Shown here: positions 1,301-61,891 of the stretch, one piece after another
Layout: every line of letters starts with the position of its first letter
How positions within the stretch are numbered: the stretch's first letter is position 1
Assembly: GCA_963822445.1 (NCBI GenBank)
Contig: CAWGHO010000002.1
Coordinates: 704,001 to 768,000, forward strand
DNA length: 64,000 nt
Direction of reading: 5' to 3'
Origin: an uncultured Acidobacteriota bacterium
Lineage (GTDB): Bacteria; Acidobacteriota; Thermoanaerobaculia; Gp7-AA8
The notes under the pieces: model-generated
What the model was told of the DNA's origin: nothing
Databases searched by the model: none
The model's input: the letters and a program-made list of their open reading frames with translations, nothing else
Position numbers and translations under genes: made by a program

Positions 1301-1386
1301 TGGTGCGAAAGGTGGGACTCGAACCCACACGGCTTTGGGCCACTGGCTCCTAAGACCAGCGCGTCTGCCAGTTCCGCCACTTTCGC
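1301..1386 (-). tRNA. tRNA-Leu(TAG)
   Basis: Reverse complement GCGAAAGTGGCGGAACTGGCAGACGCGCTGGTCTTAGGAGCCAG...GGTTCGAGTCCCACCTTTCGCACCA; long variable arm, T-loop, encoded CCA. Confidence 0.97.
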
Positions 1387-1416
1387 TTCTGACAACTTAC
1401 CCGGGCGCTGCAGGTG

Positions 1417-1492
1417 TGGTGCCCCCACTAGGACTCGAACCTAGAACCAACAGATTAAGAGTCTGCTGCTCTACCAATTGAGCTATGGAGGC
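1417..1492 (-). tRNA. tRNA-Lys(CTT)
   Basis: Reverse complement GCCTCCATAGCTCAATTGGTAGAGCAGCAGACTCTTAATCTGTTGGTTCTAGGTTCGAGTCCTAGTGGGGGCACCA, 76 nt. Confidence 0.97.
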
Positions 1493-16568: not shown

Positions 16569-19301
<2,733 letters not shown>

Positions 19302-19373
19302 GGCTTTCTCAATTCAGAAGAGTGGGTGACGCGCAGCAACAGGCGCGCCGTGCCGGAAGGAGAGGCGTGCTGC

Positions 19374-19631
19374 TCAGCAGCCGAGGCCGGGAGCGCGGGC
19401 GGCGGTGGAGCCGCGAAGCGGGCTGACCGGACGGCGAAAGCCCTGGCGATCCGAGCGGACGCGCGCGGCGCGGACGCGGGTGGGAGTGCGGACGGCGGCT
19501 CTCTCTTCGACGCGCGCCGCGGCACGGGACCCTCGGGCCACGGCGATCAGCGCGGCACCGGTCCGCGGAACCCGGTCGGCCGTTGCCGCCGCCATTCCGA
19601 AAGCCAATGCGATGAAGGAGAGGAGCGTCAT
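19374..19631 (-). CDS. Candidate secA leader/arrest peptide (signal peptide + RAPG)
   Basis: 85 aa, hydrophobic N-terminus, Arg/Ala-rich spacer, ends ...AARAPGLGC; stop lies 72 nt upstream of secA. Confidence 0.7.
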   Translation of the reverse strand: MTLLSFIALAFGMAAATADRVPRTGAALIAVARGSRAAARVEERAAVRTPTRVRAARVRSDRQGFRRPVSPLRGSTAARAPGLGC

Positions 19632-19663
19632 GTTGAAAGGTTCGTCAGGGTATCAAATCGGCC

Positions 19664-20494
19664 CTAGGGCCGCAGCATTTCCAGCCGGTCGTAGGCCATC
19701 CACGTCTGGTGCCCGAGGAAGATGACCAGGGAGAAGTAGAGGACGGCGATGCCCGCGCGCTGGGCGGCTGTGACTTCGTAAAAGTGCTTGTCGGTCTTCT
19801 CGCGGACGATCGAGGCGTACACCTGAAACGCGGCGAGCAGAGCGATGACGATGATCAGCGGGTTGGGCTGATCGATGATTTTGTAGACGACCGCGCCGCC
19901 GCCGATGACCCACATCCACTTCGTGACCGCGGCGGAAATCCGCCCGCCGTCGAGCATGCCGATCGGGAGCAGATTGAAGAGATTCAGCGCGAATCCGAGG
20001 AGGGCGATGAAGAGGTACGTCGGGTCGAGCGACCACTTGTAGAACTGCAGCACGACCAGCGAGGCGATCGTGCCCGCGAACGGCCCGGCCAGACCGATCA
20101 GCGCATCGTCGTAAGCGGTGCGGGGCTGATCCTTCAGCGTGACCGCGCCGCCGATGAAGGGGATGAAGATCATGAATCCGACGCGGAGTCCTTTCGCGCG
20201 AATGACGACGGCATGACCGATCTCGTGGATGAGTGTGATCACGACGAAGCCGATGACGATCGCCAGCGGTTCCTGCGTGGCGTACGCGGCGATGGTGACG
20301 ACGAATGAGCCACCGGCGATCGCGTACTGCATCGCCCCGAAGCCTTCGAACGGGTTCACGAAGAGAATGCGGATCTTCTCGACCAGAACGATCACCAGCG
20401 TCTTCGCCTTGAGGGCGAAAACGGTGAGGAGCAGGATCAGGCCGGAAAGGAGCTTCGGAAACGTTCGCCGCCGCGGCGAAGATGTTGAAGACAT
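19664..20494 (-). CDS. Site-2 protease (M50)
   Basis: HEIGH, AGP, NLLPIGMLDGG. Confidence 0.92.
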   Translation of the reverse strand: MSSTSSPRRRTFPKLLSGLILLLTVFALKAKTLVIVLVEKIRILFVNPFEGFGAMQYAIAGGSFVVTIAAYATQEPLAIVIGFVVITLIHEIGHAVVIRAKGLRVGFMIFIPFIGGAVTLKDQPRTAYDDALIGLAGPFAGTIASLVVLQFYKWSLDPTYLFIALLGFALNLFNLLPIGMLDGGRISAAVTKWMWVIGGGAVVYKIIDQPNPLIIVIALLAAFQVYASIVREKTDKHFYEVTAAQRAGIAVLYFSLVIFLGHQTWMAYDRLEMLRP

Positions 20495-41823: not shown

Positions 41824-41824
41824 G

Positions 41825-41905
41825 GAATGCAGAATTCAGAATGCAGAATGCAGAAAAAGCGAATCGCTTCTGCATTCTGCATTCTGCATTCTGCATTCTG
41901 CATTC
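41825..41905. repeat. Inverted array of 7-bp repeats (ATGCAGA)
   Basis: (AATGCAG)n-spacer-(CTGCATT)n. Confidence 0.9.
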
Positions 41906-41911
41906 GCCAAC

Positions 41912-61795: not shown

Positions 61796-61888
61796 AATGC
61801 AGAATGCAGAATGCAGAATGCAGAACCGGCCCACGTTACGTCGGGTCGATCTCACCTTTTTGCATTCTGCATTCTGCATTCTGCATTC
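61796..61888. repeat. Inverted array of 7-bp repeats (ATGCAGA)
   Basis: (AATGCAG)4-spacer-(TGCATTC)4 abutting the aroA start. Confidence 0.9.
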
Positions 61889-61891
61889 GTC

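What the first reader, a model, noticed from the sequence alone, without database searches (positions are those of the whole stretch)
19301..19631. Candidate SecM-analogous ribosome arrest peptide (RAPG) upstream of secA
Seen: an 85-aa ORF with a signal-like hydrophobic N-terminus, a low-complexity Arg/Ala spacer and ...GSTAARAPGLGC-stop, ending 72 nt before secA. The intergenic RNA can form a stem (GCAGCA...TGCTGC) and has a pyrimidine tract (CCTCTCCTTCC) that might pair with the weak secA RBS (GAGAAAG). Established: SecM (RAGP) and ApcA/ApdA/ApdP (RAPG/RAPP) are force-sensing arrest peptides encoded upstream of sec/yidC genes. Inference: this is a lineage-specific secretion monitor, probably annotated as hypothetical or missed.
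Basis: partly seen in the sequence, partly recalled or inferred. Interest (0 to 1): 0.75.

Follow-up and report, generated by a model that had tools for sequence, protein, structure and literature searches.

The report
Conserved RAPG arrest-peptide candidate before secA
A small conserved gene just ahead of the secretion motor gene secA looks like one of the known "stalling peptides" that let bacteria sense how well protein export is working, here in a little-studied soil lineage.

Summary
An 85-codon ORF (19374..19631, minus strand) ends 72 nt before secA. It is not a GC-rich accident: 17 relatives of 85-93 aa exist in public protein sets. The alignment shows a conserved hydrophobic N-terminus, a poorly conserved Arg-rich middle and a conserved C-terminal block P-L-R-G-x-x-A-x-R-A-P-G. 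R-A-P is invariant in 18 of 18, and the stop lies 2-5 codons after the Pro. This meets the published bioinformatic criteria for Sec/YidC monitoring arrest peptides of the RAPP-like ("RQH") kind (PMC10987492, PMC7897499).

SecA relatives place the organism in Thermoanaerobaculia (Acidobacteriota). I found no uORF from that class, and none of this family's strings, in the readable tables of the 2024 survey.

Three points are weaker. The proposed RNA stem and anti-SD pairing are absent from the predicted folds. Linkage to secA in relatives could be checked for only 1 of 10 homologues, because no relative's DNA could be fetched. The N-terminus looks more like an N-out membrane anchor than a classical signal peptide.

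Stalling and secA induction are inferred, not shown. Verdict: a probable new member of a known kind, of moderate interest.

The parts
19374..19631 (-). uORF of 85 codons plus TGA: the candidate arrest peptide / monitoring substrate
   Evidence: ORF list and sequence. 17 homologues of 85-93 aa. No Pfam or NCBIfam family.
19578..19625 (-). Codons 3-18: N-terminal hydrophobic helix (LLSFIALAFGMAAATA), a putative membrane-targeting or insertion segment
   Evidence: Best 15-residue Kyte-Doolittle window is at least 1.97 in 18 of 18. No K/R precedes it in 18 of 18. Mean pairwise identity is 0.75. AlphaFold2 gives a helix at 3-18, with mean pLDDT 87 and 71 for residue blocks 1-10 and 11-20.
19422..19577 (-). 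Codons 19-70: basic, poorly conserved spacer that includes a second short hydrophobic patch at residues 24-32
   Evidence: Mean pairwise identity is 0.50 for residues 19-32 and 0.38 for 33-70. The indels fall here. K+R is 12-20 and D+E is 2-8 per protein. Mean pLDDT is 46-55 for every 10-residue block after residue 20.
19386..19421 (-). Codons 71-82: conserved C-terminal block PLRGSTAARAPG, the putative arrest sequence
   Evidence: Mean pairwise identity is 0.77. G74, R79, A80 and P81 are invariant; P71 and L72 are at least 90% conserved, in 18 sequences.
19386..19397 (-). R79-A80-P81-G82 codons (CGC GCT CCC GGC). The inferred stall has CCC (19389..19391) in the P-site and GGC in the A-site
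   Evidence: Sequence. The P-site assignment is by analogy with toeprints of ApcA/ApdA/ApdP and the RQH family (PMC7897499 and PMC10987492). It was not tested here.
19302..19373 (-).
   Evidence: Folds are no more stable than shuffles. No Rfam family. No promoter-like or terminator-like site in 19200..19800.
16569..19301 (-). secA (910 aa, canonical, with SEC-C motif): the presumed regulated gene
   Evidence: Pfam SecA_DEAD, P-loop_SecA, SecA_SW, SecA_PP_bind and SEC-C. Closest named relatives are Thermoanaerobaculia SecA.
19599..19606 (-). UGGCUUUC in uORF codons 9-11, predicted to pair with GAAAGCCA (19301..19308) at the secA start (a lead only)
   Evidence: 8 contiguous pairs in the 404-nt fold. 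Mean unpaired probability of the start region is 0.125 against 0.374 +/- 0.137 in 60 shuffles, and 3 of 60 shuffles are as paired. The finding is post hoc and no covariation test was possible.
19664..20494 (-). Upstream neighbour: 276-aa Peptidase_M50 family membrane protein. Its stop lies 32 nt before the uORF ATG, so it is possibly co-transcribed
   Evidence: Pfam PF02163, E = 6.2e-17. No terminator-like or promoter-like site between the two genes.

Best explanation
The ORF is a real, translated upstream gene of secA in a Thermoanaerobaculia (Acidobacteriota) bacterium. It most likely encodes a RAPP-like (R-A-P-G) ribosome arrest peptide of the monitoring-substrate kind.

Proposed course of events:
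1. The uORF and secA sit on one mRNA.
2. The N-terminal hydrophobic helix (residues 3-18) leaves the ribosome and is targeted to the membrane insertion/translocation machinery.
3. When Pro81 (CCC) is in the P-site and Gly82 (GGC) in the A-site, the nascent ...PLRGSTAARAP chain blocks peptide-bond formation and the ribosome pauses.
4. The spacer of about 63 residues puts the helix at the membrane at that moment. Productive insertion pulls on the chain and releases the pause.
5. If insertion or export is poor, the pause lasts, and this raises secA translation.

Shown here: the gene, its conservation pattern, the motif and its geometry.

Inferred: stalling, force release and the effect on secA. 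How a stall would reach the secA start, 72 nt downstream, is unknown. A SecM-type unmasking hairpin is not predicted.
For: Homologues and conservation:
- 10 homologues at 59-84% identity. A profile search of 1.84 billion representatives returned 9 proteins at E <= 0.001: one already known (P0003), 7 new homologues of 86-93 aa, and one spurious 473-aa repeat protein that I dropped.
- In the 18-sequence alignment M1, S5, A8, A10, G12, R33, G74, R79, A80 and P81 are invariant.
- The fourth motif residue is G in 14, A in 2 and E in 2.
- Regional mean pairwise identity is 0.75 (residues 1-18), 0.50 (19-32), 0.38 (33-70), 0.77 (71-82) and 0.25 (83-85).
- The spacer from the hydrophobic segment to the P-site Pro is 63-71 aa (median 65). 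The stop lies 2-5 codons after the Pro.

Other support from the window:
- This is the only one of 532 six-frame segments of at least 60 aa with a RAPP-like word in its last 10 residues.
- AlphaFold2 gives a helix at 3-18 and low-confidence structure (a further helix at 24-48, then coil) for the rest.
- The ORF lies directly upstream of canonical secA.
- P0011 (uORF homologue) and P0148 (SecA, 90% identical) both come from a jgi contig of 301,683 nt.

Literature:
- The search criteria (uORF of sec/yidC, N-terminal signal or TM, conserved C-terminus, spacer over 30 aa) and the RAPP-like RQH family are in PMC10987492 (sections 6 and 12).
- ApcA stalls with the Pro of RAPG in the P-site and needs distal tunnel residues (PMC7897499, passages).
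- RAPG depends on its context (PMC12992588, passages). This fits the conserved PLRG block 8-10 residues upstream of the P-site Pro.
Against: - No stalling data exist for this peptide.
- Linkage to secA in relatives is unverified for 9 of the 10 homologues that have contig data. No relative's DNA could be fetched. The A1 scan of genome contigs confirmed no relative: 236 stretches matched a pattern, none passed tblastn. The SecA scan returned only loci at or below 63% identity, and none holds the uORF.
- Among the 119 closest SecA clusters listed, at 84-96% identity, only one shares a contig length with a uORF homologue. The uORF may therefore be rare, or simply uncalled by gene finders.
- Codon statistics are marginal.
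- RAPG failed to support arrest when swapped into ApdP or SecM (PMC12992588), so the motif alone does not prove arrest.
- Glu at the fourth position (2 of 18) is not among the eight best A-site residues for ApcA.
- No K/R before the hydrophobic stretch, together with a net charge of about +12, argues against export of the tail. It suggests an N-out anchor whose insertion would not obviously need SecA.
- No hairpin that a stall would open is predicted.
Confidence: 0.6

Rival explanations
1. It is a genuine small membrane-anchored protein with a job of its own, for example an accessory or partner of the neighbouring M50 protease or of the translocon. The conserved C-terminal PLRG..RAPG would then be a binding motif, with no programmed arrest.
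For: The hydrophobic helix at 3-18 and the basic tail fit a tail-in membrane peptide. Several Arg positions in the middle are invariant across the 11 closest sequences (R33, R44, R54, R57, R59). The ORF sits between an M50-family gene and secA. RAPG is not a self-sufficient arrest motif (PMC12992588).
Against: The exact R-A-P core with a stop 2-5 codons later, a near-constant spacer and a disordered, poorly conserved middle are the specific signature of known arrest peptides (PMC10987492). No fold and no family were found.
Confidence: 0.15
2. The uORF is translated and tunes secA translation, but through ribosome traffic and mRNA refolding rather than a force-sensitive arrest. Its codons 9-11 pair with the secA start region, so translating the uORF opens secA.
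For: An 8-bp pairing 19599..19606 / 19301..19308 is predicted. The start region has mean unpaired probability 0.125 against 0.374 in shuffles, and 3 of 60 shuffles are as paired. The genome is SD-poor, so start-site structure may dominate initiation.
Against: The pairing was found post hoc and is only marginally unusual. No covariation test was possible. This reading does not explain why R-A-P and the PLRG block are invariant at the protein level.
Confidence: 0.1
3. It is a non-coding secA leader in which a GC-rich open frame was called by gene finders. The conservation would reflect DNA or RNA constraint, not a peptide.
For: The region is 73% GC, and such DNA often stays open by chance. The window holds many spurious long ORFs, for example 697 aa antisense to secA. 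The codon score is only at the 5th percentile of real genes. The protein databases list only intact ORFs, so there is ascertainment bias.
Against: Start, length and stop position are kept in 18 of 18 sequences down to 33% identity. Conservation is blockwise at the protein level, with an invariant R-A-P and variable neighbours. The ORF's frame is the best of six.
Confidence: 0.07

Closest known systems
RQH family of RAPP-like arrest peptides upstream of secA (uA_RQH groups; Fujiwara et al. 2024, PMC10987492)
   Same: It is a small unannotated uORF directly before secA. It has an N-terminal hydrophobic localisation segment, a spacer over 30 aa, and a conserved C-terminal R-A-P-G a few codons before the stop. 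It lacks overall similarity to other groups and has a patchy, lineage-restricted distribution.
   Different: It comes from Thermoanaerobaculia. The readable secA table of that paper has no row from this class and none of this family's strings. The three Acidobacteriota rows in that table are RAPP 'orphans' upstream of genes annotated SecA2. Here the gene is the canonical 910-aa secA, and the fourth motif residue varies (G, A or E). Stalling is untested.
ApcA (Actinobacteriota, upstream of yidC; Sakiyama et al. 2021, PMC7897499)
   Same: It shares the R-A-P-G core and a variable fourth residue. The ApcA cluster includes RAPA and RAPE (Methods passage). Both have a TM-type rather than a cleaved-signal N-terminus, a short and narrow spacer, a stop a few codons after the motif, and conserved residues further up the tunnel. 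No SD-sequestering hairpin is predicted for ApcA either.
   Different: The downstream gene is secA, not yidC, and the phylum is different. Sequence homology to ApcA was not tested, because no ApcA sequence was run through a tool.
SecM (Enterobacterales and relatives, upstream of secA)
   Same: It holds the same genomic position and has the same presumed logic: a uORF whose stall reports on export and controls secA.
   Different: There is no sequence similarity: no Pfam or NCBIfam hit at E <= 1 in 18 of 18 members. [quoted passage not shown] It is 85 aa rather than 170 codons. It lacks a basic n-region and has a very basic tail. No stall-sensitive hairpin over the secA start is predicted.
MifM (Bacillus, upstream of yidC2)
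   Same: Both have an N-terminal anchor and a short, narrowly distributed spacer. The MifM median is 54 and this family's is 65. That is the pattern the authors associate with N-out/C-in insertion sensors.
   Different: The arrest sequence is unrelated and the regulated gene is different.

Membership tests
Sec/YidC monitoring-substrate candidates, RAPP-like 'RQH' family (criteria of PMC10987492 section 6) | Small uORF of unknown function immediately upstream of secA, secDF or yidC | tested here: met
   The 85-aa ORF ends 72 nt before secA. No Pfam or NCBIfam family.
Sec/YidC monitoring-substrate candidates, RAPP-like 'RQH' family | N-terminal secretion signal or transmembrane segment (SignalP, TMHMM or DeepTMHMM in the paper) | tested here: inconclusive
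   Only crude measures were available. The Kyte-Doolittle 15-residue window is at least 1.97 in 18 of 18. The 19-residue window is 1.53-2.11, and the window's own peptide scores 1.58. AlphaFold2 gives a helix at 3-18. The dedicated predictors were not available.
Sec/YidC monitoring-substrate candidates, RAPP-like 'RQH' family | C-terminal sequence conserved among homologues | tested here: met
   Residues 71-82 have mean pairwise identity 0.77, against 0.38 for the middle. R79, A80 and P81 are invariant in 18 of 18.
Sec/YidC monitoring-substrate candidates, RAPP-like 'RQH' family | Spacer of more than 30 residues between the localisation signal and the end of the conserved sequence | tested here: met
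   63-71 residues, median 65, in 18 of 18.
Sec/YidC monitoring-substrate candidates, RAPP-like 'RQH' family | (R/Q/H)-(A/G/D)-(P/G/S)-(P/G) motif near the C-terminus | tested here: met
   RAPG in the window's peptide and in 14 of 18 family members. 4 of 18 have RAPA or RAPE, which are outside this formula but on the paper's list of ApcA-cluster motifs.
Sec/YidC monitoring-substrate candidates, RAPP-like 'RQH' family | Homologues also lie upstream of the same sec gene | tested here: inconclusive
No DNA of relatives could be obtained.
Sec/YidC monitoring-substrate candidates, RAPP-like 'RQH' family | Ribosome stalls with the third motif residue in the P-site; stalling is abolished by R-to-A or P-to-A | not testable with these tools
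   Needs in vitro translation and toeprinting.
Sec/YidC monitoring-substrate candidates, RAPP-like 'RQH' family | Arrest is released by export or insertion, and a prolonged arrest induces the downstream gene | not testable with these tools
   Folding gives no stall-dependent opening of the secA start (0.41 against 0.41). An experiment is needed.
SecM | Sequence membership in the SecM family, and a ...RAGP arrest motif | tested here: not met
   No Pfam or NCBIfam SecM hit at E <= 1 in 18 of 18. The motif is RAPG.
ApcA | RAPx or RGPx motif near the C-terminus with an N-terminal localisation signal | tested here: met
   The family definition is in PMC10987492 section 21.
ApcA | Encoded upstream of yidC; the cluster is confined to Actinobacteriota | tested here: not met
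   The downstream gene is secA. The SecA relatives are Thermoanaerobaculia / Acidobacteriota.
ApcA | Sequence homology to ApcA (same MMseqs2 cluster) | not tested
   No ApcA sequence was put through a comparison tool. The resemblance of the last 8 or so residues was seen by eye only, in a supplement row.

The most novel reading that the evidence does not exclude
This would be an insertion-type (N-out anchor, MifM/ApcA-like) force sensor wired to secA rather than to yidC, in an organism that largely lacks Shine-Dalgarno sites. The stall would act not by melting a local hairpin but through ribosome occupancy or queuing on the uORF. That occupancy would keep codons 9-11 from pairing with the secA start codon region (19599..19606 with 19301..19308). 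If so, it would be a new output mechanism for RAPP-like arrest peptides. [quoted passage not shown]
Probability: 0.1. Interest if true: 0.65.

Novelty: new member of a known kind. Interest (0 to 1): 0.4.

Why it matters
RAPP-like arrest peptides are known to be patchy but widespread regulators of the export machinery. Acidobacteriota appear in the readable secA table of the 2024 survey only as three 'orphan' RAPP uORFs upstream of SecA2-annotated genes.

A conserved RAPG family upstream of the canonical secA in Thermoanaerobaculia would add three things:
- A lineage and a natural sequence series: 18 variants, with G, A or E at the A-site position and a conserved PLRG tunnel block. These could be used to study how the weak, context-dependent RAPG core is made to stall.
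- A case where the sensor looks like an insertion substrate although the regulated gene is secA.
- An annotation point: small ORFs of this type are called inconsistently.

It does not change the general picture.

Tried and rejected
1. Scan of genome contigs with the uORF alignment. 236 stretches matched a pattern, but none was confirmed by tblastn.
2. Scan of genome contigs with SecA. I examined 77 of the 80 upstream regions; L028, L042 and L043 lack the secA 5' end, and a few others have under 900 nt upstream. None had a credible uORF with a hydrophobic N-terminus and a RAPP-like tail. An HMM of A1 against six-frame translations of all 80 loci gave only the window itself below E = 0.07.
3. 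The listing of cluster members for ten homologues did not complete because the database was switched off. Accessions and names of the homologues are therefore unknown.
4. Matching contig lengths of uORF homologues to SecA hits. There was 1 match (301,683) and none for 2666, 2048, 2019, 2245, 1925, 1526, 12712, 3815 or 2536 among the 120 + 120 rows listed. Power is low, because many rows lack contig data and SecA fragments may be merged into 90% clusters.
5. The idea that the deviant middle of P0007 and P0010 is a double frameshift of the same DNA. Alignment scores to the other two frames were within the shuffle range, so I rejected it.
7. Rfam found nothing in the region; the only hits in the window were two tRNAs.
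8. The promoter/terminator scan found nothing in 19200..19800.
9. The best ESM Atlas scores were 0.80, the level reached by a third of shuffled sequences, so there is no lead.
10. AlphaFold2 confirms only an N-terminal helix.
11. Literature searches for this family: 'Thermoanaerobaculia' + 'arrest peptide' gave 0 papers. 'arrest peptide' + 'Acidobacteriota' + 'secA' gave 1 paper, which mentions the phylum only in a proteome-bias figure legend. 'monitoring substrate' + 'RAPG' gave nothing new.

Three supplementary files of PMC10987492 were too large to read and two were stored cut. The family could be listed there.

Full report
**1. What is in the sequence**

On the minus strand an ATG at 19631 opens an 85-codon frame that ends with TGA at 19374..19376. 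Its product is MTLLSFIALAFGMAAATADRVPR...PLRGSTAARAPGLGC. The next gene downstream starts at 19301 and runs to 16569. It is a canonical 910-aa SecA with all SecA Pfam domains and the SEC-C motif.

Upstream, a 276-aa Peptidase_M50 family gene (19664..20494) stops 32 nt before the ORF's ATG. No promoter-like or terminator-like site was found between 19200 and 19800. No Rfam family matches the region.

**2. Chance or gene?**

The window is 64% GC and this stretch is 73% GC. Long spurious ORFs are common here, for example 697 aa antisense to secA, so an open frame alone means little.

Codon statistics are only weakly in favour. The ORF's frame scores best of the six (0.11 bits per codon). That is the 5th percentile of 85-codon windows of 27 confident genes, and second-position GC is 0.71.

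Two other results are stronger.
- Of 532 six-frame stop-to-stop segments of at least 60 aa in the window, this is the only one with RAPG, RAPP, RAGP or RGPP in its last ten residues.
- The peptide has relatives. A word-indexed search of 5.8 billion proteins gave 10 homologues of 85-90 aa at 59-84% identity.
- A profile search of 1.84 billion representatives returned nine proteins at E <= 0.001. One (P0003) was already known. Seven of 86-93 aa were new. One was a 473-aa repeat protein that matches a short stretch four times, which I dropped as spurious.

**3. The conservation pattern**

In the 18-sequence alignment the invariant positions are M1, S5, A8, A10, G12, R33, G74, R79, A80 and P81.

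Mean pairwise identity by region:

| Residues | Region | Identity |
|---|---|---|
| 1-18 | hydrophobic N-terminus | 0.75 |
| 19-32 | | 0.50 |
| 33-70 | Arg-rich middle, where all indels fall | 0.38 |
| 71-82 | PLRGxxAxRAPG | 0.77 |
| 83-85 | last residues | 0.25 |

- The fourth motif residue is G in 14 sequences, A in 2 and E in 2.
- The stop follows the motif's Pro by 2-5 codons in all 18.
- The distance from the end of the hydrophobic stretch to that Pro is 63-71 residues (median 65).
- AlphaFold2 on this alignment predicts a helix at 3-18 (mean pLDDT 87 and 71 for residue blocks 1-10 and 11-20). Every later 10-residue block has mean pLDDT 46-55; the model also draws a low-confidence helix at 24-48, then coil.
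- No member hits any Pfam or NCBIfam family meaningfully.

I tested whether two members with a deviant middle (P0007, P0010) read the same DNA in another frame. The scores were within the shuffle range, so I dropped that idea.

**4. Organism and distribution**

SecA fragments and full-length SecA at 84-96% identity are labelled 'Thermoanaerobaculia bacterium' or 'Acidobacteria/Acidobacteriota bacterium' by their sources. The window is therefore from that class of Acidobacteriota.

Relatives' DNA could not be obtained.
- The scan of species-representative genomes with the uORF alignment confirmed nothing.
- None of those loci carries the uORF. 77 upstream regions were examined, and an HMM was run over six-frame translations of all 80.

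As a substitute I compared contig lengths. The uORF homologue P0011 and the 90%-identical SecA P0148 both come from a jgi contig of 301,683 nt. None of the other nine uORF contig lengths appears among the 240 SecA rows listed.

That test is weak, because many rows have no contig data and SecA fragments may be merged into larger clusters. It leaves two points open: whether the family is always next to secA, and whether it is rare among close relatives or merely uncalled by gene finders.

**5. The RNA claims**

- GCAGCA at 19368..19373
- TGCTGC at 19333..19338
- CCTCTCCTTCC at 19355..19365
- GAGAAAG at 19304..19310

The 136-nt and 211-nt folds are no more stable than shuffles (z = 0.11 and 1.17). 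They do not use that stem, and they place CCUCUCCUUCC in a loop.

In a 404-nt model, forcing open a stalled-ribosome footprint around CCC81 leaves the mean unpaired probability of the secA start region unchanged, at 0.41.

The organism seems to use Shine-Dalgarno sites little. Only 8 of 35 longest-ORF starts have an SD-like 4-mer, although start positions are uncertain. So the lack of an SD before the uORF, and the weak one before secA, are ordinary here.

The 404-nt fold does pair GAAAGCCA at the secA start (19301..19308) with UGGCUUUC in uORF codons 9-11 (19599..19606). The start region is less accessible than in shuffles: 0.125 against 0.374 +/- 0.137, with 3 of 60 shuffles as paired. This is post hoc and marginal, and I treat it as a lead only.

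**6. Most likely function**

The pattern is the one used to find Sec/YidC monitoring substrates: a uORF of a sec gene, an N-terminal hydrophobic segment, a conserved C-terminus and a spacer over 30 aa (PMC10987492, section 6).

The motif belongs to the RAPP-like set. The ribosome stalls with the third motif residue in the P-site in every RQH member toeprinted (PMC10987492 passages), as reported earlier for ApcA, ApdA and ApdP (PMC7897499 passages).

- ApcA carries RAPG and needs residues further up the tunnel. [quoted passage not shown]
- RAPG did not support arrest when placed in ApdP or SecM (PMC12992588 passages). The conserved PLRG block 8-10 residues upstream of the P-site Pro is therefore what one would expect if this peptide stalls.
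- According to the introduction of PMC12992588, structures of RAPP and SecM complexes show a shared conformation at the peptidyl-transferase centre. Of those two structure papers I saw only the search listing.

I therefore infer the following. There is a stall at Pro81 (P-site) and Gly82 (A-site), with the leading edge of the ribosome at about the uORF stop codon. The stall is released by pulling when the N-terminal helix is inserted. Prolonged stalling raises secA expression. None of these three steps is shown.

How the stall would act on secA is unknown. The authors of PMC7897499 likewise found no SD-sequestering hairpins for ApcA, ApdA and ApdP.

**7. A qualification on 'signal-like'**

None of the 18 peptides has a K or R before the hydrophobic stretch. 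The window's peptide has 16 K+R against 4 D+E. By the positive-inside rule (established knowledge) this favours an N-out/C-in anchor over an exported passenger.

The spacer is short and narrow: 63-71 here, against medians of 54 for MifM, 71 and 131.5 for the two SecM classes, and 133 for VemP (section 12 of PMC10987492). That is the pattern those authors associate with insertion-type sensors. This fits oddly with secA as the output gene, and it is the most interesting loose end. SignalP and DeepTMHMM were not available to settle it.

**8. Comparison with what is known, and novelty**

By function and anatomy this is closest to the uA_RQH groups and to ApcA. It is not a SecM homologue.

In the readable supplements of PMC10987492:
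- The strings SFIALA and AARAPG do not occur.
- The secA uORF table has no Thermoanaerobaculia row, although the stored part of the genome list holds 19 mentions of that class.
- That table has three Acidobacteriota rows. All are RAPP 'orphans' upstream of genes annotated SecA2: two uA_RQH_Vicinamibacterales and one uA_RQH_Acidobacteriales.
- Three supplementary files were too large to read and two were stored cut, so the family could be listed there.

Full-text searches found no paper on an arrest peptide in Thermoanaerobaculia.

I rate this a new member of a known kind. It is a probable addition to the catalogue of RAPP-like monitors, with some unusual features: a RAPG core before secA, an anchor-like N-terminus and an SD-poor host. 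Experimental stalling data are still needed.

**9. Verdict**

- Observation: confirmed.
- Interpretation: partly supported.
- The ORF is a real conserved small gene: about 0.9 (my judgement).
- It is a RAPG-type arrest peptide that regulates secA: 0.6.
- Interest: 0.4.

Noticed in passing
window 41824-41906 and 61796-61889: Two intergenic spots carry inverted arrays of a 7-nt unit, (AATGCAG)n, a spacer, then (CTGCATT)n. These would form long, near-perfect hairpins. A 23-mer from one array has 9 matches at up to 3 mismatches, against 0 in 100 shuffles. They may be a repeated palindromic element or terminators.
   Followed up: partly
window 19599-19606 with 19301-19308 (minus strand): An 8-bp long-range pairing is predicted between uORF codons 9-11 and the secA start region. 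It is marginally more occluding than in shuffles, with 3 of 60 as paired. No covariation test was possible.
   Followed up: partly
whole window (35 confident long ORFs): Only 8 of 35 longest-ORF starts have an SD-like 4-mer at -20..-4. The organism appears to rely little on Shine-Dalgarno sites. Many start regions are locally AT-rich instead.
   Followed up: partly
window 19664-20494 (-): A 276-aa Peptidase_M50 family membrane protein lies directly upstream of the uORF, with a 32-nt gap and no terminator-like site between them. It may be in the same operon as the uORF and secA.
   Followed up: no
window 1301-1492 (-): Two adjacent tRNA genes: tRNA-Leu (anticodon TAG) and tRNA-Lys (anticodon CTT).
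   Followed up: no
window 17574-19667 (+): A 697-aa open frame runs antisense to secA and across the uORF region. Its GC by codon position (0.84, 0.40, 0.67) is typical of a shadow ORF, not of a gene. It shows how easily long false ORFs arise in this genome.
   Followed up: partly
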